DNA of 64,000 nucleotides, taken from contig CAYLZD010000002.1 in the NCBI GenBank assembly GCA_964388275.1, positions 131,089 to 195,088 of the forward strand, written 5' to 3'. Positions 38,783 to 48,258 of this stretch are shown piece after piece (the first letter of the stretch is position 1; each line of letters starts with the position of its first letter). The notes under the pieces were generated by a model. That model ran no database searches. It was given only the letters and a program-made list of their open reading frames with translations, and was not told the origin of the DNA. Origin of the DNA: an uncultured Chromatiales bacterium (lineage in GTDB: Bacteria; Bacteroidota; Ignavibacteria; SZUA-365). A program made the translations under genes and the position numbers.

Positions 38783-40105
38783 TCAATATGCGGACACGAC
38801 ATCTATTCCGGGAAAATAGGCGCGCAATATCTCCGCGGCGTTGTAACCCTTGCGGGCCCGATCGAGAGCTCCGTATTGGCATAAGCCGATCCCATGTCCA
38901 CTGCCGGCGCCGCGCAGAGTGACGGAACTGATCCAGCGATTCTCATCGCGCTTGACTTCCACGGCGAATAGCGAACTTCGCAGAATTCTGTTTCCGTCGG
39001 GTCTGCGCAGAATCCAGCGGATGCGGTCGCCTCCGAGTGTGAGCACATGATGGCGGGTTTTGTTCCCAAGCACTATGTTCAATTGCGCGACCCGGCCCGA
39101 AGGCATGCGTTTCAACACGCGCAAATCGAGCAGATGCAATCCGCTTTTCATGCTCGCTTGAAAAGGAAGTGAGTCGCTCGCCGAAGGCAGGTATGTGAAC
39201 AGCAACTCCTCGAGTTCTCTGCGGGACCATGTTTCCGTCCAGCGGTAGGAAGGCGATTTCGAACAGTAATCGCCGTGCCTGCCCGCGTCGCGAATGCCCG
39301 TCAGGTAAGGTTTCGATTGAGGCCTGCCCCAAGCAAGCGACACGGCCTCAGTCGCCCCGCCGCAGGTGGAATGGTAGTAACATTCGGCGTATCTGCCTCC
39401 GTAACCTGCCGCGAGGCCGGTGGTTTCGCGCACGGCGCGCGAAGTAACGGGCGACACGGTGGCAAGGCCGGAATAGACTTGATCCCGCGTGTCCGAATGA
39501 ACATCGAAAAGCCGGGCGAGAGGCGACTCGGTTTTACGCAGCGCATACGTGCGGGCGAGAATGGCTTGCGCCTTTACCGCTTCGAGTTCATCGGCGGATC
39601 GGTCGGGACCGATTTCATTCGGCACGACGCCGAGCACGTAAGTCTCCATCGGCACAACATTGAGCAGTGAAAATCCCCGCGAATCCCTGACAATGAGCAT
39701 GGTGTCCGGATAGCGGCGGCCCGAAAGAGTGAAATAGCGGCCGGCCGCGTGATGGAAACACCGCACGGTCTCGCCCGTCAACAGGTCCATACGCCCGACT
39801 CTGACATCCAGTCCGCCGGCTTCGTTCAGGGAACAGACGAGCGCAGCGGAATCCGCGGTCGTGTAGCGCTTGGCGCCTGTTTCGATCACGGCGCCCGCTT
39901 GCAGGCCCAAGACGATGCTCTTTACGCCCTCGGCCAGACAGACTCTTACATTGGGTCCGCCGGAAGCGGGAAGGGATCGTTCAGGCGGACCCGAGCAGGA
40001 GACGGCCGACCACATCGCCGCCGCCATTGTGGCCGCCGCGCAGAAAGTCTTCAACGGATTCTTGCCTGCTATTGGAACGCGCGCGAATCTTCTATGGCAG
40101 GACAT
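38783..40105 (-). CDS. SpoIID/LytB-domain protein (peptidoglycan lytic transglycosylase-like)
   Basis: Hallmark C-terminal SpoIID motif GHGIGLCQYGA plus a conserved central region. N-terminal signal sequence. Confidence 0.8.
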   Translation of the reverse strand: MSCHRRFARVPIAGKNPLKTFCAAATMAAAMWSAVSCSGPPERSLPASGGPNVRVCLAEGVKSIVLGLQAGAVIETGAKRYTTADSAALVCSLNEAGGLDVRVGRMDLLTGETVRCFHHAAGRYFTLSGRRYPDTMLIVRDSRGFSLLNVVPMETYVLGVVPNEIGPDRSADELEAVKAQAILARTYALRKTESPLARLFDVHSDTRDQVYSGLATVSPVTSRAVRETTGLAAGYGGRYAECYYHSTCGGATEAVSLAWGRPQSKPYLTGIRDAGRHGDYCSKSPSYRWTETWSRRELEELLFTYLPSASDSLPFQASMKSGLHLLDLRVLKRMPSGRVAQLNIVLGNKTRHHVLTLGGDRIRWILRRPDGNRILRSSLFAVEVKRDENRWISSVTLRGAGSGHGIGLCQYGALDRARKGYNAAEILRAYFPGIDVVSAY

Positions 40106-40181
40106 GGCGCCTGTTCTCCGAAGCGCGAAAAAAAAAGCCCACCGCACGGTGTGCTCGCTCGACACGCTCCGGAAACCTCCG

Positions 40182-40583
40182 CTAACGGAACATGGCCTTG
40201 ATGCTGCCCCATGTGCGCTTGACACTGCTGACGCTGTGCGTCACAGGAACATCCTGCGAAAAAGAAGCCGTCCCGCCGCTTTCAACGATGCGCAGGCGGT
40301 ATACGTAAACGTTGTCGCTGGTTTTGTAGGCGGTTCGATCGGTATACGAATAGAACGCACCCTCGTCCTTCGGCTGCACCTCGCCGATCGTGATGAATTC
40401 CCCGTTCCATCCGGCTTTCCTCTGAATCTCGAACGCGACCAGATTGCTTTCGCTCCGGGTTTTCCATTCGAGCGTGATATCCGATCCATCGCTTCTGCCC
40501 TGGAAAAAATCCAGAAAGGCGCCGGCCAAGGCGGCGGCGCTCAAAGCGATGATCAATATCGTATAGCCGAAAATTCTATTCAT
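40182..40583 (-). CDS. Hypothetical small secreted or membrane-anchored protein
   Basis: 133 aa, N-terminal hydrophobic segment, beta-rich, lies upstream of the SpoIID-like gene. No recognised domain. Confidence 0.4.
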   Translation of the reverse strand: MNRIFGYTILIIALSAAALAGAFLDFFQGRSDGSDITLEWKTRSESNLVAFEIQRKAGWNGEFITIGEVQPKDEGAFYSYTDRTAYKTSDNVYVYRLRIVESGGTASFSQDVPVTHSVSSVKRTWGSIKAMFR

Positions 40584-40822
40584 TATGCCGTGGATTCTCG
40601 CTTGCCGCGAGAACTAATGTACGTATACACTCCGGGAATGTCAAGAGAAATCAGCGGTCTGACAATGGAGAGCTTTTACCGACCGCTCGTGCGTGCCGCG
40701 CGCCGAATCCGATGGTGAAGGATCCGGCGGCGGGCGGAAGATGGCGGGCCGGGAACAAATGAACCGCTTCTCGCGTATCAGCCGGGTCAGTCCGCGCGGC
40801 GAAAGGAAAACGTAAGGCGATA

Positions 40823-43360
40823 ATGAAAACAGTAATCCGATACATGCTCATCTTCACGACGGCAAGCGCGTGCGCGGTTTCACAGGGAAATCCGATTATC
40901 AATGAAATCATGTACGCTCCGGAGCAGGGGAAGTGCGAGTGGATAGAACTGTACAATCCTTGCGGCGACACCATCGATCTCAACGGCTGGATTATTCACG
41001 ATGCCACCACAGCGAGAAATCCGGTCGCGACCGCGCACTTCGCGCTTCCGCCGGGCGCATATGCCGTGGCATGTGCGGACTCCACCCTGATCTCCGATTT
41101 TCCGGAAATGGCGTCGCGCATGACGGTCATGAAGGGATTTCCTTCTCTCAACAATTCCGGTGACGAGCTTTTCCTTCTGGATCCCGACCTGAAACTGAGG
41201 GATTACATCCATTACAGGTCTTCATGGGGAGGGGGCTCCGGCGTTTCCCTGGAGCGCATCGATCCGAACGGTGAAAGCAACTTGAAAGAGAATTGGAAAA
41301 CCGGCATAGCTGCCGAGAAGGCGACTCCCGGACGCAAGAACAGCGTCTCAAAACCGGATCATGACCTCGCGATCGACGCTGTGCGTATCGATCCCGCCAG
41401 GCCCCGCATGGGCGAAACCGCGCGCATCGAAATTCAGGCGCGCAACGGCGGGACGGCGGACGCCGCGGGATTCGGTTTGAAGGTGTATGAGCACTCCGTT
41501 GACGGGGATTCCACCACGCCGGGGCTTCCAATACTGACACTCTCCTCGACTGCGGTTCTCGCCGCATCCGAAACCGCCGTTCTGTCTGGGATCCTGTATC
41601 CTACGGATATGCCGCAACGAAATCTGAGCGCAGTCATTGCTTGTGAAAACGATGAGGACGCCAGGAACGATACGGGAAGGATCGGCTTCAGATATTCCCC
41701 GGCGGCGGGCAGTGTAGTGATCAACGAGATAATGTACGCTCCATTATCCGGCGACCCGGAATGGATCGAGCTATACAATGCCACGGCCCGGAGTGTCAAT
41801 GCGGCGGGATGGTTCATCTGCGACGAGGCGTCGAGCAGGGAGATCGACGCCGGGTCCGGTGCGACCATCCCGCCGTATGGATTCTGCGTATTGTCGGCAT
41901 CCGAGGATATTCTGCGCCGTTATCCGTCCATGCCCGTGACACCGATAATACTGGCGCTCCCGTCCCTGAACAACGGCGGCGATGCTGTGCGCCTTCTCGA
42001 TGATGCCGGCGCGGCCGTTGACAGCATGCGTTACGAATCGGCATGGGGCGGCGGCGACGGGCTTTCCCTTGAACGCGTGAATTTCACCCGGCCATCATCG
42101 TATGCGGCAAACTGGAAGCCCTGCGAGGACCTTTCGGGCGGCACTCCCGGCGCACCGAACAGCGTGCGAGCGCGGGATCGCAATCTGGCCATCGGCACCG
42201 TCCTTATCATGGGAGCCGATGCGGCGGTGACCGTCTTGAATGCGGGCCTTCTGGCTTCCGCCGCCGGTATGCTGTTTCTTTACCACGACAGGGATGGAGA
42301 TGGAAGCCCTTCGCCGCTCGAGGAGATTGCTCGGGCTGAAATCCCGACTCTGGAGAGCGGCGATTCATGCGTGCTCCGCTTCAATGAAACTACAGATGCA
42401 ACAGGAATTATTCGCCTCATCTTCCGGATCGAATACGATGCCGACGAGAGGCCCGGCGATAACATCCGCAGTGTGGAAATGGTCAGAGCGGCGGAACCCG
42501 GCCTGTTCGCAATCAACGAAATAATGTATGCCCCGTTCAGCGGCGAGGCGGAATGGGTGGAATACATTAATCGGTCACCGGCGGCCGTGGATATCGCGGG
42601 TTACAAGCTGGCGCGGGATAAATCAACGGACGGGACGCGGACGACCATTCAGCTTCCCGTAACTCCGACACCGGTGCTACCTGGCGATTACGTAGTCATT
42701 GCCTCGGACAGCGCCTTGTTTGCGCGTTTCAAGTATCTGCTTGAAGGCGGTTCGACGAGCAGGGTGGTAATATTGAACAGAGTCTCGCTGGGCCTGACCG
42801 AGAACGGCGAGTTGCTTCTGTGCGATCCGGCCGGGACCGTGATCGACAGCATGATGTATTCCCCTTCTCTGCATAATCCCAATGTCCATGACACCAGAGG
42901 GAGATCGCTGGAGCGGCTCAACCCGGAATTTCCCCCGATGCTGCGCTCCAACTGGAGCACCTGTCCTGAAACGGAAGGGGGTACGCCGGGGAAGCGCAAT
43001 GCGCTTTTCACCGGACGCCCGCCATGGGAGAGCGGAGGAAAGGCGCGGCTGCTGGCGACCCCGAATCCCTTCTCGCCCGATGGGGACGGTCACGACGATC
43101 ATTGCGTTATCAGTTGGGAATTGCCCGGCTCGGTATCGCAGATTCGTTTGCGGATTTTCGACAGCATAGGCCGCCAGGTCCGAACCGTGGCGTCGAATCA
43201 ACCCTCCGGTCGCGCCGGCCAGCTCCTTTTCGACGGAAACGATGACGGAGGCAGACGTCTGCCTATCGGAGTGTACATCATGCTGCTGGAAGCGGTGGAT
43301 TTTCACGGCGCCGGAATATCCTCCATAAAGGAGGCGCTCGTAATCGCGACACGCCTATAA
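40823..43360 (+). CDS. Large secreted protein with three lamin-tail (LTD) domains and a T9SS type-B C-terminal sorting domain
   Basis: Motif INEIMYAP..G..EWIELYN occurs three times (near aa 25, 295, 565). C-terminus has NPFSPDGDGHDD (type-B sorting/FlgD-Ig-like) signature. Signal peptide present. Confidence 0.7.
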   Translation: MKTVIRYMLIFTTASACAVSQGNPIINEIMYAPEQGKCEWIELYNPCGDTIDLNGWIIHDATTARNPVATAHFALPPGAYAVACADSTLISDFPEMASRMTVMKGFPSLNNSGDELFLLDPDLKLRDYIHYRSSWGGGSGVSLERIDPNGESNLKENWKTGIAAEKATPGRKNSVSKPDHDLAIDAVRIDPARPRMGETARIEIQARNGGTADAAGFGLKVYEHSVDGDSTTPGLPILTLSSTAVLAASETAVLSGILYPTDMPQRNLSAVIACENDEDARNDTGRIGFRYSPAAGSVVINEIMYAPLSGDPEWIELYNATARSVNAAGWFICDEASSREIDAGSGATIPPYGFCVLSASEDILRRYPSMPVTPIILALPSLNNGGDAVRLLDDAGAAVDSMRYESAWGGGDGLSLERVNFTRPSSYAANWKPCEDLSGGTPGAPNSVRARDRNLAIGTVLIMGADAAVTVLNAGLLASAAGMLFLYHDRDGDGSPSPLEEIARAEIPTLESGDSCVLRFNETTDATGIIRLIFRIEYDADERPGDNIRSVEMVRAAEPGLFAINEIMYAPFSGEAEWVEYINRSPAAVDIAGYKLARDKSTDGTRTTIQLPVTPTPVLPGDYVVIASDSALFARFKYLLEGGSTSRVVILNRVSLGLTENGELLLCDPAGTVIDSMMYSPSLHNPNVHDTRGRSLERLNPEFPPMLRSNWSTCPETEGGTPGKRNALFTGRPPWESGGKARLLATPNPFSPDGDGHDDHCVISWELPGSVSQIRLRIFDSIGRQVRTVASNQPSGRAGQLLFDGNDDGGRRLPIGVYIMLLEAVDFHGAGISSIKEALVIATRL

Positions 43361-43436
43361 ATGGACGGGTCTGATTTTTTCTTCGAGAGACCGGTCGCCA
43401 TGGCCTCGGGCGTTCGGGCGGCGCCGGAGCGCGGAA

Positions 43437-45164
43437 CTACAGTGGGGGCTGATACCGGCCGGCCGCTTCCTGAAGCAGCTCGTTGATCGTGTTCTTGAGT
43501 TCCTCGATCTGGAACGGTTTCGACAGATACCGGTTGCAGCCGGCGGCGAGACAGCGCTGTTTATCCTCCGGAAATGCATGAGCGGTGATGGCTATGACCG
43601 GAATCGGATGGAAGGTTTTATGCTCGCGGATTCGCCGCGTCAGATGTAGTCCGTCTTCATCGCCTCGCAGAGACAGGTCCATCAGTATCAGATCGACGGA
43701 ATTCTGGTTGAGCGCGTCCCAGGCCTCGCTTCCCGAAGTCGCGATCCTTATGTCGTAGTCGCGCTTGAGAAGAACGAGCATGTATTCCTGCGTCTGCTCG
43801 TCGTCCTCCACTATCAGCACGGTTCTGCCGTTCGCAGCGCGGGAGTTGTTTTCGGCATAGGCTGCGGCGGCCGAGTGTTCGACCTGCAGCGGCAGTTCTT
43901 CCTGAAGGCCGTCGGAGGCGGCGGCCGAAAGGAAACGCAGCGTGAAAGTCGTTCCGACGCCCTTCCGGCTCTTGACCGTGATGCTGCCCTGGTTGAATTC
44001 GATATACCTCTTGGTCAGGGCAAGACCCAGTCCCAGTCCTTCGAACGGCCTCGTATATCCGATGATTTCCTGTGAAAACACATTGAACACCCGAGGCAGA
44101 TACTCCGCGCTGATGCCTATGCCAGTGTCGGACACTTCTATGCAGACGCGTCTGTCCTGACGGTACGTGCGGACTTTAACGCCGCCGCGGTTGGTGAACT
44201 TGATCGCATTGTCGATCAGGTTTGTGAGCGCCTGGTCGAGACAGTAGCGGTCGGCGATAATCAGAGCGCCGGGGTATTCGTTCAGCGTTGTGAGCGTGAG
44301 TCCTTTCTCCGCCGCTATGGAGCGCAGATCCATTATCAGGGTTTCGACCCGGTCGTTGACGTCGATCGGTTCCGGGTGGAGTTCGAAGGTTCCGGCCTGT
44401 ATGCTCGAAATGTTGAGTATATGCTCAACCGTGCGCATGAGACGCTGGCCGCCGCGCTCTATGCTTTCGAAGAAAGTCAGTTCCTCGGCCTTGATCCGGT
44501 CGGACATCTCCGCCATGATCAGCGAGGAGTAGCCGAGAATGACGTTGAGAGGAGTCCTGATTTCGTGCGAAATGTTCGCTATGAAAGCATCCTTCAGCCG
44601 GTCCGATTGCTCGGCGCGTTCCTTGGCTGTGATGAGTTCGAGTTCCTGCCGCTTGCGTTCGGTGATATCCCTGATCATGACCTGAACCGCCTCCTCCCCG
44701 TCGTAGGTTATCGGGATGGCGGTAACCTCGATGTCGATAACCTGACCGTCGTAGCGGACAAATTTTTCCTCGATAAAAGACAGTTCGCCGGGATGGCTCA
44801 GAAATTCGGTTATGCGGCTCTTCGCATGTTCGTAGAAGGCGGTGCGGCCGTATTCCTCCAGTTGTTTGCCGATCAATTCGTCGGGATTCATGGCGCCGAA
44901 CAGTTTGGCGCCGGCGTCGTTGACGTAGCGGAACTCGCCTTCGATGAGCACCGCCATCGGGAAAGGAGAGAAATTGACGAGGCGGCGGTATCTCTCCTCG
45001 CTTTCGGTAAGGACTTCCAGATTCTTCTGCTGTATGGCGAACACGCGCCTCTGCTGCACCAGCACTATCACGATAATGCCCACGACAAGCACCAGCGCCG
45101 TGACGACGCCCGAGATTATCGCGACGGCTTCCGTCAATATGCCGGCTAATGCGAGAGTGTCCAC
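43437..45164 (-). CDS. Hybrid sensor histidine kinase/response regulator (TM-PAS-HisKA-HATPase-REC)
   Basis: TM helix, PAS (NPDELIGKQLEEY..), HisKA (FIANISHEIRTPLN), HATPase (N, G1, G2 boxes), C-terminal receiver (LIVEDDE...LILMDLSL...SKPF). No in-frame ATG near the domain start, so start assigned to GTG 45164. Confidence 0.8.
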   Translation of the reverse strand: MDTLALAGILTEAVAIISGVVTALVLVVGIIVIVLVQQRRVFAIQQKNLEVLTESEERYRRLVNFSPFPMAVLIEGEFRYVNDAGAKLFGAMNPDELIGKQLEEYGRTAFYEHAKSRITEFLSHPGELSFIEEKFVRYDGQVIDIEVTAIPITYDGEEAVQVMIRDITERKRQELELITAKERAEQSDRLKDAFIANISHEIRTPLNVILGYSSLIMAEMSDRIKAEELTFFESIERGGQRLMRTVEHILNISSIQAGTFELHPEPIDVNDRVETLIMDLRSIAAEKGLTLTTLNEYPGALIIADRYCLDQALTNLIDNAIKFTNRGGVKVRTYRQDRRVCIEVSDTGIGISAEYLPRVFNVFSQEIIGYTRPFEGLGLGLALTKRYIEFNQGSITVKSRKGVGTTFTLRFLSAAASDGLQEELPLQVEHSAAAAYAENNSRAANGRTVLIVEDDEQTQEYMLVLLKRDYDIRIATSGSEAWDALNQNSVDLILMDLSLRGDEDGLHLTRRIREHKTFHPIPVIAITAHAFPEDKQRCLAAGCNRYLSKPFQIEELKNTINELLQEAAGRYQPPL

Positions 45165-45898
45165 CGCCTGTGCTCGCTGTAGAATGAGTATGCGTAAATC
45201 AGATTCGCCGTGACGCCGAGCATCGAGTGTATGCTCCAGATCAGGTCGAGTTCGCTGTAATCCCCGCTCAGAATGACGTTCGCCAGAGCAAAAATTATCA
45301 GGTTTCCCGAGAAATAGATCATCACGGCTGAAACCACCCAGAAACGGGGATTGCGGAAAATGCCCATGATGTCTTCGGATGTCAATCTTATCAGGGTCAG
45401 CACCGACACTGCTACCAGCACCACGCTCTCGAAAGTCGCGGCGTAGCTGTCGAATCGGGGGTCCCGTTCCGGATTGATCACCTTTACGAGCACCCACACC
45501 ACCACGAAAGCCGGCACGCTGAAAGCTATGAAATATCTCCACTTCGGGCGGTTCTGCCACAGCGCGAAGATCAGCATCAGCAGTCCGAATTCAAAAAGCG
45601 TGTATATGTTGAACGGCCAGTAGTTGTTCCATTTATGCGCTGAAAGCACAACGGAAATCGCTTCAACGACCACCGCCATGGCGATGAGCGTGAGCAACAA
45701 CTTGAATTCGAGTGAGAGTGACTTACCGAACCAGAGACCGACGAATAGAGGAATGATTCCGGTGAAAGCGGTATAGCGGAGTATCAGGGGAACTTCCGAC
45801 GAGGAAGAAGGAAAAAAGTACTCAGCCCCGGGAAGCAGGAGTATGCTGACGAAAGCCAGTACGCGGAACAGGATTTGAGAATTGCGCTCGTGTGCCAA
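45146..45898 (-). CDS. Polytopic (7-8 TM) membrane protein directly upstream of and overlapping the hybrid kinase
   Basis: 250 aa, almost entirely hydrophobic helices. Stop lies inside the kinase 5' end. Confidence 0.55.
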   Translation of the reverse strand: MAHERNSQILFRVLAFVSILLLPGAEYFFPSSSSEVPLILRYTAFTGIIPLFVGLWFGKSLSLEFKLLLTLIAMAVVVEAISVVLSAHKWNNYWPFNIYTLFEFGLLMLIFALWQNRPKWRYFIAFSVPAFVVVWVLVKVINPERDPRFDSYAATFESVVLVAVSVLTLIRLTSEDIMGIFRNPRFWVVSAVMIYFSGNLIIFALANVILSGDYSELDLIWSIHSMLGVTANLIYAYSFYSEHRRWTLSH

Positions 45899-45985
45899 AG
45901 TTCAACGCTTCCCTCCCGCGGGAGGTCTTTTAAAAGGGTGGATGTGGACGAAACCCGCTCTGTAGTGGCCTGTCAGGCCGCGTCA

Positions 45986-46040
45986 ATGCCGCAATATTGC
46001 ACCCACACGCGCAATATATTCCTTTCCGGCGCAATCACAA
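45986..46040. promoter_or_regulatory. Three phased GCGCAAT(A/C) direct repeats (20-bp spacing); the first lies in a 10-bp palindrome GCAATATTGC
   Basis: GCAAT starts at 45991, 46011 and 46031. Located in the 179-bp gap upstream (minus orientation) of the 7TM gene. Confidence 0.35.
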
Positions 46041-46077
46041 GAATCGGGGTCCGTCGCACATCCACCCGCGCGACCGC

Positions 46078-46485
46078 CTAGCTGTTCAGTTCGTTGAAGA
46101 AACCGCAATACGGCGGACACGGGACCGAGCGCTCGAGTATGAATCCCTCGATCAGATCGTTGCCCGTCGCGTCCACACCCACAAGCACGAGCACCGGACG
46201 TCCGTCGTTTTCCTGTCCATAGTAGTAGCGGATCCCGACAACCCCTTCCTGGTCCAGCAACTGCTGCAGCGCTGCCTGGCCGAAGAAGCCGCCCTTTATG
46301 GCGTTCTTGCCTGCGCGCTCGCGGAAGTTGCGAGTCAATGCAGCCGCGTCTCCGAGCATGATGTCGTGATCCTCGTTGCCTGTGAACATCGGACGGCGAC
46401 GCTCACGGATCTCCGGCTTCGCCGGCGCGACGGGGATGTCTACGAAAGACTCAAGAGTCTGGGGGTTGATAGTTGTGGTTTCCAT
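46078..46485 (-). CDS. Unknown-family small protein, tandem paralog A (C-terminal VPCPPYCGFFNELNS)
   Basis: 135 aa, soluble, ~97% identical in protein to paralog B but ~90% in DNA, with mostly synonymous differences. Confidence 0.6.
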   Translation of the reverse strand: METTTINPQTLESFVDIPVAPAKPEIRERRRPMFTGNEDHDIMLGDAAALTRNFRERAGKNAIKGGFFGQAALQQLLDQEGVVGIRYYYGQENDGRPVLVLVGVDATGNDLIEGFILERSVPCPPYCGFFNELNS

Positions 46486-46556
46486 GACGATCTCCTGTAA
46501 AAAGCTTGGCGTTGAAAATTCTGTAATCGAAGGTCGGGGTTTGCGATGAGTGCCGA

Positions 46557-46961
46557 TCAACTGTTGAGTTCGTTGAAGAAGCCGCAATATGGCGGACACG
46601 GGACCGAACGCTCGAGTATGAAGCCCTCGATCAGGTCGTTGCCCGTCGCGTCCACACCCACAAGCACGAGCACCGGACGGCCGTCGTTTTCCTGGCCGTA
46701 GTAGTAACGGATTCCGACTACTCCCTCCTGGTCCAATAGCTGCTGCAATGCGGCCTGTCCGAAAAATCCTCCCTTGATGGCATTTTTGCCTGCGCGCTCG
46801 CGGAAATTGCGAGTCAATGACGCGGCATCTCCGAGCATGATGTCGTGATCCTCGTTGCCTGTGAACATCGGACGGCGACGCTCGCGGATTTCCGGTTTGG
46901 CCGGCGCAACGGGCACGTCGACGAAAGACTCGAGGGTCTGAAGGTTGATTGTGGTTTCCAT
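46557..46961 (-). CDS. Unknown-family small protein, tandem paralog B
   Basis: 134 aa, same family as paralog A. Head-to-tail duplication with a ~476-bp period. Each copy has its own AGGAG-like site upstream. Confidence 0.6.
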   Translation of the reverse strand: METTINLQTLESFVDVPVAPAKPEIRERRRPMFTGNEDHDIMLGDAASLTRNFRERAGKNAIKGGFFGQAALQQLLDQEGVVGIRYYYGQENDGRPVLVLVGVDATGNDLIEGFILERSVPCPPYCGFFNELNS

Positions 46962-47430
46962 AACGACTCCTGTTGAATAGAAAGAATGAATTGAGGATTG
47001 ATTGTCGGTTTCCAGTTTTCGGATCGCGCGGCAGGCAGCACGGAAGCCCTGCGATTTAAGACTTATTTGTCTTGAATAGAGGCACGAGATCGAGCGGCTG
47101 ATGCCGATTACACGGTCCGACGGTTAATACGTTGTCAATTGAAGATGTAGAGCACTGAGCTTCGAGCAGGCCGGCAGGCGATTCATGCGTGAGAGCCGAT
47201 ACGCTTTGCGCGAAATGCGCCTGGTTCGAAGAGGCACCTCAGCACCTCATAGTGCGAATGTACATCAAATGCAAGTGGAAGGCAATAATTATTTTACGTT
47301 TTTGCAAAAATTTTTTATCTGCCCTGAAATCTGCTTATTACCATGGTATTATTGCTGATAGAGGCATTTTGACGTAGCTTTCGAACATGATGCACGTGAG
47401 AGATGATAAAACTGCAGCAATCGACGGCAC

Positions 47431-48258
47431 ATGGAAAAGGTTTCTGTCGTAGACGTGTTGCCGGGACCGATCCCGGTTCTCGAGGCACTGCGGGATACAT
47501 GGAGCAGACGCGAGCTCGTAATTCTGCTGGCCGTCAGGGATATAAAGGTGCGATTCAAACAGACTCTGCTGGGTGTCGCTTGGGCGATCATCAGGCCCGT
47601 GGTCGCGACTTTTGTCTTTACATTTATCTTCGAGCGGATCGCCGGACTGTCATCACAGGGAGTGCCGTATCCCCTGCTGGCGCTCAGCGGCGTTCTGGCC
47701 TGGAATTTCATGTCCGAGGGCATCAACAGCGGCAGCCACGGGATGCTCAGGCATACAGGACTCATTACCAAGGTCTATTTCCCGAGAGTCATCTTTCCTC
47801 TCGCAGGGATGTTGGGAGGACTTGCGGATCTGACGGTTGCCCTGCTCTGCTATGTGGCAATTGCCGCCGCATACGGTTACGCGCCCGGCGCTTCCGTTTT
47901 GCTGCTGCCGGCGGCCGCGGCATACGGCCTGGTAACGGCTTTCGGAGTGAGTCTCTGGTTCAGCTCTCTCGGTGTACACTACCGGGACGTGTGGCATGCG
48001 CTGCCTTTCGTCTTGCAGATACTATTCTGGATCACGCCTGTCGGGTATGGCGCGCAGATCATACCTGACGAGGTCATGCCGCTTTATTGGTGCAATCCCT
48101 TCGTGTCCGTCATCGAACTTTTCCGCTTCACCCTGCTCGACACCCCCTTCCCGCCCGCGCATCTCATGTTGATCTCGGGATGCGCAGGCCTTCTGCTGCT
48201 TGTAACCGGACTCCGCTTCTTCCAGTGGGCCGAGACCGCTTTCGCTGATGTGATATGA
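47431..48258 (+). CDS. wzm: ABC-2 type polysaccharide/O-antigen export permease
   Basis: 275 aa, 6 TM, ABC-2 family signature region (LGVAWAIIRPVV..). Stop overlaps the ATPase start. Confidence 0.8.
   Translation: MEKVSVVDVLPGPIPVLEALRDTWSRRELVILLAVRDIKVRFKQTLLGVAWAIIRPVVATFVFTFIFERIAGLSSQGVPYPLLALSGVLAWNFMSEGINSGSHGMLRHTGLITKVYFPRVIFPLAGMLGGLADLTVALLCYVAIAAAYGYAPGASVLLLPAAAAYGLVTAFGVSLWFSSLGVHYRDVWHALPFVLQILFWITPVGYGAQIIPDEVMPLYWCNPFVSVIELFRFTLLDTPFPPAHLMLISGCAGLLLLVTGLRFFQWAETAFADVI

What the first reader, a model, noticed from the sequence alone, without database searches (positions are those of the whole stretch)
46078..46961. Tandemly duplicated unknown-family small proteins under purifying selection
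Two head-to-tail copies encode 134-135-aa proteins that differ at only about 4 residues. The DNA copies are only ~90% identical and most differences are synonymous. So both copies are old, both are maintained by selection, and they have not simply been homogenised. The protein has no family I recognise. It has no signal peptide or TM segment, a Gly/Tyr-rich segment (GVVGIRYYYGQENDGRPVLVLVGVDATGNDL) and a C-terminal Cys pair (VPCPPYCGFFNELNS). The pair sits at the head of a minus-strand unit that continues into a 7TM protein and a hybrid histidine kinase. It may be a dosage-amplified effector or cargo of that signalling module, or a redox or metal-binding protein using the CPPYC pair.
Basis: seen in the sequence. 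Interest (0 to 1): 0.75.

Follow-up and report, generated by a model that had tools for sequence, protein, structure and literature searches.

The report
Duplicated partner protein of 7TM-kinase sensor
Two old, strongly conserved tandem genes encode an unannotated small protein that, across the Bacteroidota–Ignavibacteria group, almost always sits directly upstream of an equally unannotated GPCR-shaped membrane protein and a sensor-less histidine kinase, which points to an undescribed signalling module.

Summary
Copy A (46557-46961, 134 aa) and copy B (46078-46485, 135 aa) differ by 3 substitutions and one codon. Of 402 aligned bases, 47 differ (dS 0.72, dN 0.011, dN/dS 0.016). A sister lineage (92% nt identity) has the same pair. 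A groups with A' (28 synonymous, 0 non-synonymous changes) and B with B'. So the duplication is old and has not been homogenised.

Tandem arrays occur only in the window's clade. There the array appears to be its own transcription unit.

Best reading: a dedicated input-side accessory (co-sensor) subunit of a split 7TM/kinase sensor, amplified for dosage. Its biochemical function is untested.

The parts
46557..46961 (-). Copy A, small-protein CDS (134 aa, stop included)
   Evidence: ORF list and sequence. It is identical to P0001, which is found in 5 public contigs. An HMM built from the family matches over profile positions 3-135.
46078..46485 (-). Copy B, small-protein CDS (135 aa, stop included). 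The true start is the ATG at 46485, not the GTG at 46599.
   Evidence: Public assemblies call a 135-aa gene at this position. Against copy A, dS is 0.72 and dN/dS is 0.016.
46486..46556 (-). 71-nt spacer between the copies, with an SD-like ACAGGAG before the ATG of copy B. The same motif precedes copy A.
   Evidence: Read directly from the sequence. The duplicated segment is about 417 nt, which is the CDS plus about 12 nt upstream.
46962..47262 (-). Promoter-like motif (TACATTCG, 47262-47255) and a ~290-nt leader upstream of copy A. Conserved blocks are CTGAGGTGCC (47242-47233) and the hairpin AAGACAAATAAGTCTT (47073-47058).
   Evidence: Alignment with L006 and L007. Coordinates. No Rfam family matches here. 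That it is a promoter or leader is inferred, not shown.
45928..46067 (-). Long-range RNA stem (GGGUGGAUGUG...CACAUCCACCC, 46067-45936) followed by UUUUAAAA. This is a terminator-like element directly after copy B.
   Evidence: MFE -85.5 kcal/mol with z = -3.96 against dinucleotide shuffles, repeated at z = -3.8. Coordinates. Relatives have hairpins with U-runs at the same place (L007, L008, L017).
46012..46040 (-). Internal promoter-like motif TTGTGA-N16-TATATTG in front of the 7TM gene
   Evidence: Flagged by the promoter scan. The same TTTG-N19-TAtATTTG motif occurs at this position in at least 8 of 11 array-bearing relatives. Its resemblance to the Bacteroidetes -33/-7 consensus rests on my own knowledge.
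45146..45898 (-). 7TM partner protein (250 aa: seven core helices plus an extra N-terminal helix)
43437..45164 (-). Hybrid histidine kinase (575 aa from the GTG at 45164): N-terminal hydrophobic segment, PAS, HisKA, HATPase_c, REC. Its start overlaps the end of the 7TM gene by 19 nt.
   Evidence: Pfam domains. Start-codon analysis. Public assemblies call a 575-aa gene. The 707-aa ORF is over-extended.

Best explanation
The two genes encode a dedicated accessory subunit on the input side of a split membrane sensor.

The sensor consists of a GPCR-fold 7TM protein and a histidine kinase. The kinase is anchored by a single N-terminal helix and has no extracytoplasmic sensing domain of its own. The small alpha/beta domain (about 104 aa in its minimal form) probably acts as a dimer or pseudo-dimer. 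It would bind or sense a cue through its invariant surface (TG.E.H, N-Y/F-R, GG.FG, the GIRYYY/LVLVGVD hairpin, the P-C-P-P-x-C loop and a fixed N.LNS C-terminus). It would then modulate the 7TM/kinase complex, as binding-protein co-sensors or CpxP-type modulators do for other kinases.

In the window's clade the gene acquired a ~30-aa N-terminal extension and its own promoter, leader and terminator. It was also duplicated into arrays of 2-4 copies. In this reading, the two nearly identical proteins raise dosage.

Shown: the duplication, its age and the selection on it; the family and its obligate gene context; the predicted folds.

Inferred: physical interaction with the 7TM/kinase, the direction of information flow, the dimer, the role of the Cys pair, and dosage as the reason for keeping two copies.
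For: 1. Linkage, seeded from the small protein. In 85 genome loci, the small gene is followed on the same strand by a ~210-aa multi-TM protein in 58 loci and by a kinase/regulator cluster in 75 loci. Small-to-7TM gaps are 5-32 nt and 7TM/kinase starts often overlap.
2. Linkage, reciprocal. Of 70 metagenome loci seeded with the 7TM protein, 35 have the small gene directly upstream. Among strong 7TM matches with enough upstream DNA the figure is 33 of 34.
3. The small+7TM pair is combined with different kinases: short 1-TM HisKA_3 kinases with REC-GerE regulators, PAS-HisKA kinases and hybrid kinases. It behaves as a portable input module.
4. In the short-kinase cassettes the small protein is the only soluble non-catalytic domain.
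5. The 7TM model has a receptor-like fold.
6. Domain doubling recurs. 68 of the 194 best-scoring members are two-domain fusions, and 66 of those keep at least one Cys pair. Arrays in relatives combine Cys-bearing copies with a Cys-less last paralog. This is consistent with a (pseudo)dimer.
7. The small protein is the slowest-evolving of the four cassette proteins, with mean p-distance 0.44 against 0.66, 0.55 and 0.50. The same residues are conserved in all architectural classes.
8. Selection is very strong: dN/dS is 0.016 between copies, and there are 0 non-synonymous against 28 synonymous changes between A orthologs.
Against: - No interaction was tested.
- About a third of the top family members have Sec signal peptides or lipoboxes, while the window's copies and many others have none. 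The partner 7TM nevertheless keeps the same topology in all classes. One fixed docking face therefore cannot hold for all members unless leaderless forms are exported by an unknown route.
- In the window's clade the array has its own terminator-like element, and the 7TM genes have their own promoter-like motif. That arrangement fits a regulated output or a signal as well as a subunit.
- Mirror-tree partial correlations link the small protein only weakly to the 7TM (0.20) and the kinase (0.21), and this rests on 13 loci.
- Weak 7TM relatives often lack the small gene.
Confidence: 0.45

Rival explanations
1. Regulated output or effector. In this reading the small protein is the main product controlled by the 7TM-kinase system rather than part of the sensor. 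It could be a stress-protective protein, or a metal-, haem- or thiol-binding protein acting through CxxxC. It may feed back on the sensor, as in liaIH-liaGFSR, cpxP-cpxRA or copM-copRS.
For: - In the array clade the small genes have their own promoter-like region, a long leader and a terminator-like stem. The 7TM-kinase genes have a separate conserved promoter-like motif.
- Copy number is amplified to 2-4.
- The same conserved core occurs in both exported and non-exported forms. That fits a compartment-independent binding function. HMA-type metal-binding domains are a comparable case, from my own knowledge.
- The Cys pair is nearly invariant.
Against: - In most of the family the gene is single copy and packed 5-32 nt upstream of the 7TM gene in one operon. 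That looks like stoichiometric co-expression rather than a separately induced effector.
- The Cys pair is dispensable in one half of many two-domain fusions.
- Nothing here shows metal, haem or redox chemistry.
Confidence: 0.25
2. Secreted or released protein signal. In this reading the small protein, or its C-terminal PCPPxC...LNS tail, is an autocrine or quorum ligand of the GPCR-fold receptor. The receptor then switches the kinase, and the gene array boosts signal production.
For: - 67 of the 194 best-scoring members have N-terminal signal-like segments, with AxA cleavage sites or lipoboxes.
- A Cys pair is typical of extracellular proteins.
- The array is a separate transcription unit.
Against: - The window's copies have no signal peptide, and the conserved neighbourhood contains no exporter or processing enzyme.
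- The periplasmic loops of the 7TM protein are very short.
- The protein is the most conserved component of the cassette and its C-terminal tail is conserved across phyla. This is the opposite of the diversification expected of pheromone/receptor pairs.
Confidence: 0.2
3. RiPP or Agr-like peptide precursor. In this reading a long conserved leader carries a Cys-containing core peptide that is modified or cyclised, and the membrane protein acts as the processing enzyme.
For: - Tandem multi-copy genes and a C-terminal Cys motif are typical of RiPP precursor arrays (my own knowledge).
- A membrane protein and a kinase lie next door, as in agrBDCA.
Against: - There are no NHLP or Nif11 hits in NCBIfam and no AgrD or AgrB hits in Pfam.
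- No modification enzyme or transporter is among the conserved neighbours.
- The 'leader' folds into a confident alpha/beta domain, with pLDDT around 90 over residues 31-134.
- The C-terminus is conserved rather than hypervariable.
- The 7TM protein has no conserved Cys, and its predicted fold is a receptor-like bundle.
Confidence: 0.03
4. A recent, functionally redundant duplicate or an assembly artefact that carries no particular meaning.
For: Tandem duplicates are common, and metagenome assemblies can create repeats.
Against: - dS between the copies is 0.72.
- The same pair is present in at least 3 independent assemblies.
- Orthologous A/A' and B/B' pairing holds, with 22 fixed paralog-specific sites.
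- Arrays of 2-4 copies are present in all close relatives.
Confidence: 0.01

Closest known systems
Binding-protein co-sensors of histidine kinases (LuxP-LuxQ, TorT-TorS); comparison from my own knowledge
   Same: A small soluble protein is encoded directly upstream of, and in the same operon as, the kinase it controls. The kinase does not bind the cue itself.
   Different: LuxP and TorT are periplasmic-binding-protein-fold proteins with signal peptides, and they bind a large periplasmic kinase domain. Here the protein is a ~104-aa domain with no detectable fold relative. It often lacks a signal peptide. The kinase has no periplasmic domain, and a separate 7TM protein sits between the two genes.
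liaIH-liaGFSR of Bacillus subtilis, and CpxP-CpxA or ZraP-ZraS; from my own knowledge
   Same: All combine small accessory or effector genes, a membrane accessory protein, an intramembrane-sensing HisKA_3 kinase and a NarL-type regulator. In lia a terminator lets the upstream small genes be expressed far above the sensor genes. CpxP and ZraP are small modulators that are both output and feedback input.
   Different: There is no sequence or fold relation to LiaI/H/F, CpxP or ZraP. The membrane partner here is a GPCR-fold 7TM protein.
Agr quorum-sensing cassette (AgrB, AgrD, AgrC, AgrA); from my own knowledge
   Same: Both place a small gene next to a polytopic membrane protein, a kinase and a regulator. 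The small gene is present in multiple copies.
   Different: The order of the first two genes differs: in agr the membrane protein (agrB) precedes the peptide gene (agrD), whereas here the small gene comes first. AgrD is a ~46-aa peptide that diversifies quickly. AgrB is a Cys/His peptidase. AgrC carries its own 6-7 TM sensor. None of these features is met here.
7TMR-DISM and other bacterial 7TM receptors fused to signalling domains; microbial rhodopsins
   Different: There is no Pfam 7TMR-DISM or rhodopsin hit, no conserved TM7 lysine and no extracellular DISMED domain. The 7TM is a separate polypeptide paired with a 1-TM kinase and an obligate small soluble partner.
Small metal-binding proteins encoded next to their two-component systems (CopM-CopRS, SilE-SilRS) and HMA or Sco-type Cys motifs; from my own knowledge
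   Same: A small protein with a conserved Cys pair lies adjacent to a TCS. The same domain occurs in exported and non-exported forms and in tandem copies. CxxxC plus a conserved His recalls Sco proteins.
   Different: There is no HMA, Sco or thioredoxin-fold match by sequence or structure. Metal binding is untested. The conserved His stays where the Cys pair is lost, so the two need not form one site.

Membership tests
Any curated protein family (Pfam-A, NCBIfam, PHROGs, PADLOC) or PDB sequence | Significant profile-HMM or sequence match | tested here: not met
   The window copies give no hit at or below E = 0.1 in Pfam (best 0.2, far under the cut-off) and none in NCBIfam, PADLOC or PHROGs. 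Ten diverse family members in Pfam and five in NCBIfam also give nothing relevant. A profile search of PDB sequences gives 0 hits at E <= 10. Public sources name the proteins 'hypothetical protein'.
Any solved protein fold | Structural match of a confident model | tested here: not met
Thioredoxin/glutaredoxin/DsbA-type redox proteins | CxxC active site in a thioredoxin fold | tested here: not met
   The motif is C-P-P-Y/F-C, which is CxxxC spacing. There is no thioredoxin-family Pfam hit and no fold match.
Metal-binding domains with Cys pairs (HMA, Sco) | Family HMM or fold match | tested here: not met
   No Pfam hit and no fold match.
Metal-binding domains with Cys pairs (HMA, Sco) | Binds a metal through the Cys pair | not testable with these tools
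   This needs purified protein (ICP-MS, spectroscopy, C122S/C126S mutants).
RiPP precursors with long leaders (NHLP, Nif11-like) | Leader-family HMM match, a neighbouring modification enzyme or transporter, and a hypervariable core peptide | tested here: not met
   NCBIfam gives no hit. The conserved neighbours are only the 7TM protein, the kinase and the regulator. The C-terminal tail is conserved across the family.
Agr-type quorum sensing (AgrD/AgrB) | A short AgrD peptide and an AgrB membrane peptidase with catalytic His/Cys | tested here: not met
   The protein is a folded domain of 104-135 aa. No AgrD or AgrB Pfam hit for the small protein or the 7TM protein. The 7TM alignment has no conserved Cys.
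Accessory or co-sensor proteins of two-component systems (a functional class, not a homology family) | Conserved genomic linkage with a histidine kinase | tested here: met
   The small-7TM-kinase(-regulator) order holds in most of 85 loci. It is confirmed reciprocally in 33 of 34 strong 7TM-seeded loci. All four proteins co-evolve, with r 0.87-0.96.
Accessory or co-sensor proteins of two-component systems (a functional class, not a homology family) | Binds the sensor and changes kinase activity | not testable with these tools
   No multimer prediction or experiment was available.
7TM partner: GPCR/rhodopsin-like seven-helix bundle | Seven-helix bundle fold with N-out/C-in topology | tested here: met
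7TM partner: microbial rhodopsin or 7TMR-DISM | Retinal-binding Lys in TM7, or a family HMM match | tested here: not met
   No conserved Lys in TM7 (W.IH..LNI..N..YA.GF). No Pfam hit.
Hybrid histidine kinase (downstream gene) | HisKA, HATPase_c and a receiver domain | tested here: met
   Pfam E-values: PAS 2e-10, HisKA 2e-14, HATPase_c 5e-24, Response_reg 2e-25.
Intramembrane-sensing type of histidine kinase | Membrane anchor without an extracytoplasmic input domain | tested here: met
   The window kinase starts with a single ~30-residue hydrophobic segment followed directly by PAS. The short kinases in other loci are one TM plus HisKA_3 plus HATPase, 250-270 aa.

The most novel reading that the evidence does not exclude
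The small protein and the GPCR-fold 7TM protein would form a bacterial ligand/receptor or arrestin-like partner pair that feeds a histidine kinase. This would be a previously unrecognised, FCB-wide '7TM receptor - kinase' signalling architecture. The soluble partner would have a new fold and would be exported in some lineages and retained in others. In the window's clade it would be a separately regulated, gene-amplified signal.
Probability: 0.15. Interest if true: 0.85.

Novelty: new variant of a known kind. Interest (0 to 1): 0.62.

Why it matters
Two-component systems with accessory proteins are well known. This particular input module has no Pfam or NCBIfam model, no solved-structure relative and no mention in the literature searched. 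It consists of a ~104-aa domain with no detectable fold relative, a GPCR-shaped 7TM protein and a kinase without a sensing domain.

It is nevertheless widespread. About 2,800 cluster representatives at 50% identity match the profile, across Bacteroidota, Ignavibacteria, Calditrichota, Gemmatimonadota and Zixibacteria.

Defining it would give a name and a testable hypothesis to thousands of 'hypothetical' gene pairs. It would add a new way for bacteria to couple a seven-helix receptor to phosphorelay. Culturable Chitinophaga and Sphingobacterium appear to carry single-copy cassettes and would make it experimentally tractable.

The window itself supplies an unusually clean example of long-term maintenance of two near-identical protein copies by selection rather than by gene conversion.

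Tried and rejected
- Pfam, NCBIfam, PADLOC and PHROGs scans of the window copies, the 7TM protein and diverse homologs gave nothing.
- Rfam on 43000-48000 gave only a spurious miRNA hit below threshold.
- A word-index search with the 7TM protein and with a 45-sequence 7TM alignment returned only 6 and 9 proteins. The 7TM model therefore rests on a shallow alignment.
It was repeated with a narrower alignment.
- An apparent small-domain/7TM fusion in L080 was a frame artefact of my crude gene caller in GC-rich DNA. No true fusions were found.
- A strict regex for a Bacteroidetes promoter upstream of the arrays found almost nothing. The upstream motif reported comes from an alignment of only three close relatives.
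- I tested whether 7TM topology flips with the presence of a signal peptide on the small protein. It does not.
- The mirror-tree analysis shows that all four genes co-evolve, and the partial correlations of the small protein are weak. With 13 loci it does not discriminate.
- Four literature searches found no description of this family.
- Gene conversion as the cause of protein identity is rejected.
- RiPP and Agr readings are rejected on several defining features.
Full report
**1. What is in the sequence**

The interval 46078-46961 holds two head-to-tail genes on the minus strand.
- Copy A is 46557-46961 and encodes 134 aa.
- Copy B is 46078-46485 and encodes 135 aa. The mechanical ORF for B extends to a GTG at 46599, but the ATG at 46485 aligns with the start of copy A and of every homolog.
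- The proteins differ by L7P, V16I, S48A and one extra Thr codon.
- In the codon alignment 47 of 402 bases differ (88.3% identity). There are 43.5 synonymous and 3.5 non-synonymous differences, giving dS 0.72, dN 0.011 and dN/dS 0.016.
- Neither copy has a signal peptide or TM segment.

**2. Age of the duplication and mode of maintenance**

The same two-gene array occurs in independent public assemblies. L158 and L159 are 99.96% identical to the window over the locus. L160 comes from another metagenome and is 92.4% identical.

Comparing the four genes of the window and L160 gives the following:

| Comparison | Synonymous | Non-synonymous | dS |
|---|---|---|---|
| A vs A' | 28 | 0 | 0.38 |
| B vs B' | 22 | 4 | 0.28 |
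| A vs B within a genome | 39.5-43.5 | 3.5-6.5 | 0.61-0.72 |

Twenty-two sites are fixed paralog-specific differences shared by both lineages. Only 2 sites show a conversion-like pattern. The duplication therefore predates the lineage split, and the copies have not been homogenised since. Each is held by very strong purifying selection.

Across more distant relatives, the Cys-bearing copies within one genome are always each other's closest relatives, with dS 0.05-0.70 against more than 1 between genomes. Over longer times there has therefore been repeated duplication or episodic conversion.

**3. The protein family**

No curated library recognises the protein: Pfam, NCBIfam, PADLOC, PHROGs and PDB sequences all give nothing. 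Public sources call it 'hypothetical protein'.

A profile search of 1.84 billion cluster representatives found 2,807 proteins at E <= 1e-3 and 1,340 at E <= 1e-10. The minimal unit is a ~104-aa domain, corresponding to profile positions 32-135.

Among the 194 best members:
- 68 are two-domain fusions. Of these, 33 keep the Cys pair only in the second domain, 27 in both, 6 only in the first and 2 in neither.
- 67 carry an N-terminal hydrophobic segment that looks like a Sec signal peptide or lipobox.
- 57 start at the core.
- 70, including the window's clade, have a non-hydrophobic extension.

The same residues are conserved in all classes: TG.E.H, N-Y/F-R, GG.FG, Q.GcVGIR.YY, LVLVGVD..G.D and PCPP.C. 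The chain most often ends exactly 8 residues after the second Cys, in LNS.

**4. Genomic context**

A scan of one genome per species returned 80 loci. Nearly all are MAGs of Bacteroidota, Ignavibacteria, Calditrichota, Gemmatimonadota and Zixibacteria.

Clustering of neighbouring ORFs shows one dominant arrangement on one strand:
- the small gene;
- a ~210-aa multi-TM protein, present in 58 loci, with gaps of 5-32 nt in the loci inspected;
- a histidine kinase, often overlapping the end of the TM gene;
- usually a REC-GerE response regulator.

The kinases are of several kinds. Some are short 250-270-aa proteins consisting of one TM helix, HisKA_3 and HATPase. Others are PAS-HisKA kinases of 500-830 aa. 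In the window's clade they are PAS-HisKA-HATPase-REC hybrids. All inspected examples begin with a single hydrophobic segment and have no periplasmic domain.

The reciprocal test used 70 metagenome loci seeded with the TM protein. The small gene lies directly upstream in 35 of them. Among strong TM matches with enough upstream sequence, the figure is 33 of 34. Weak TM relatives mostly lack it.

Neither partner is in Pfam or NCBIfam. The small+7TM pair is therefore the evolutionary unit, and it has been plugged into different kinases.

**5. The membrane partner**

The window's 250-aa protein (45146-45898) was modelled from a shallow alignment of 9 sequences, with pLDDT 80.4 and pTM 0.78. It has seven core helices plus an extra N-terminal helix of low confidence.

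There is no conserved TM7 lysine and no conserved cysteine. The conserved residues include two intramembrane Glu (E79, E103), P.FW at the start of helix 6, YF.GN in helix 6 and W.IH in helix 7.

K+R counts over 55 homologs give an N-out/C-in core topology with very short loops. The topology is the same whether or not the adjacent small protein has a signal peptide.

**6. What is special about the window's clade**

Tandem arrays of 2-4 copies occur only in the clade whose small protein has the ~30-aa extension ...VD.PVAP..PE.RER.RP.FTG (L001-L021 and the window). All other loci are single copy.

In the 3-4-copy arrays the last gene is a diverged paralog without the Cys pair (...LPVSRFHE..NPLNS). 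The window and its nearest relatives lack that type.

In this clade the gap between the last copy and the 7TM gene is 110-200 nt and is structured. In the window a 130-nt long-range stem (46067-45936) is followed by UUUUAAAA (MFE -85.5 kcal/mol, z = -3.96). The stem encloses a promoter-like TTGTGA-N16-TATATTG (46040-46012). Its counterpart TTTG-N19-TAtATTTG is present at the same position in at least 8 of 11 relatives. That it resembles the Bacteroidetes -33/-7 consensus rests on my own knowledge.

Upstream of copy A there is a ~290-nt leader with blocks conserved in L006 and L007.

The array thus looks like its own transcription unit, decoupled from the receptor-kinase genes. In the rest of the family the genes are packed in one operon.

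**7. Interpretation**

The solid conclusion is that this small protein is the dedicated partner of a 7TM/kinase sensory cassette. What it does biochemically is not shown.

I favour an input-side accessory or co-sensor subunit (confidence 0.45), for these reasons:
- the small+7TM pair is portable between kinases;
- in the short cassettes the small protein is the only soluble non-catalytic domain;
- it is the slowest-evolving component, with mean p-distance 0.44 against 0.66, 0.55 and 0.50;
- recurrent domain doubling, including Cys-bearing/Cys-less pairs, suggests a (pseudo)dimer matching a dimeric kinase.

Two rivals remain serious:
- A regulated effector or feedback modulator (0.25). It is favoured by the separate transcription unit, by gene amplification, and by the occurrence of the same domain in exported and non-exported forms.
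- A secreted protein signal (0.20). It is favoured by the signal peptides and the receptor fold. It is disfavoured by the lack of any export signal or exporter here, by the tiny periplasmic loops, and by the strong conservation of the protein and its tail.

RiPP and Agr-like readings fail several defining features (0.03). An artefact or a meaningless recent duplicate is refuted.

**8. Unexplained**

The coexistence of Sec-exported and leaderless members with identical conserved residues, next to a 7TM partner of constant topology, is not accounted for by any simple docking model. There are two possibilities. Leaderless members may cross the membrane by an unknown route. Alternatively, the domain performs a compartment-independent task, such as binding a small ligand, metal or haem through the CxxxC loop. 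The Cys-Pro dipeptide recalls haem-regulatory motifs, but that is a lead from memory and was not tested.

**9. Novelty and score**

Accessory proteins of two-component systems are a known kind. This particular module is undescribed in the libraries and literature I could search and is widespread. It combines a soluble domain with no detectable fold relative, a GPCR-fold 7TM protein and a sensor-less kinase.

I rate it a new variant of a known kind, with interest 0.62. The most novel reading not excluded is a bacterial 7TM-receptor/partner system feeding phosphorelay, with probability about 0.15.

Noticed in passing
window 45928-46067 (-): A 130-nt long-range RNA stem followed by UUUUAAAA lies directly after copy B (z = -3.96). 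It encloses the promoter-like motif of the 7TM gene. A second perfect hairpin, CCTCCCGCGGGAGG (45925-45912), sits just before the 7TM start codon.
   Followed up: partly
window 46012-46040 (-); L001, L002, L008, L010, L012, L013, L016 intergenic regions: A conserved TTTG-N19-TAtATTTG motif (Bacteroidetes-type promoter-like) lies between the last small-protein gene and the 7TM gene in most array-bearing relatives. This implies a separate promoter for the receptor-kinase genes.
   Followed up: partly
window 46962-47262 (-): The ~290-nt leader upstream of copy A has blocks conserved in L006 and L007: TACATTCG 47262-47255, CTGAGGTGCC 47242-47233 and the hairpin AAGACAAATAAGTCTT 47073-47058. No Rfam family matches. 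Three sequences are too few for a covariation test.
   Followed up: partly
L001, L002, L010, L012, L013 (5'UTR of the 7TM gene): A conserved hairpin GAGAGGGTTGTCC-loop-GGACAACCCTCTC lies downstream of the internal promoter-like motif. It is not present in the window.
   Followed up: no
L001-L003, L010-L013, L016, L021 (last gene of each array): A diverged 'type II' paralog lacks the Cys pair (...LPVSRFHE..NPLNS) and is about 50% identical to the Cys-bearing copies. It mirrors the Cys-less domain of many two-domain fusions. It is absent from the window lineage.
   Followed up: partly
window 43437-45560 (-): The 707-aa kinase ORF in the mechanical list is over-extended and overlaps the 7TM gene. 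The real start is most likely the GTG at 45164 (575 aa, as called in public assemblies). That start overlaps the 7TM gene's 3' end (stop codon included) by 19 nt, which suggests translational coupling.
   Followed up: yes
window 38783-43360 and L001-L005: The synteny beyond the cassette is conserved in relatives. A large LTD-domain protein (40823-43360, +) lies on the opposite strand, followed by a ~134-aa protein (40182-40583, -) and SpoIID (38783-40225, -). Relatives continue with glycogen synthase. Upstream genes vary: an ABC-2/Wzt polysaccharide exporter here, and a T9SS_plug-family protein in L001 and L002.
   Followed up: no
L001 7425-7847 and 8001-8423: Two adjacent array genes in this relative appear to encode the identical 140-aa protein. 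Two NCBI accessions are listed for one sequence, and one similar place was not shown. This suggests a much more recent duplication or conversion event than in the window.
   Followed up: no
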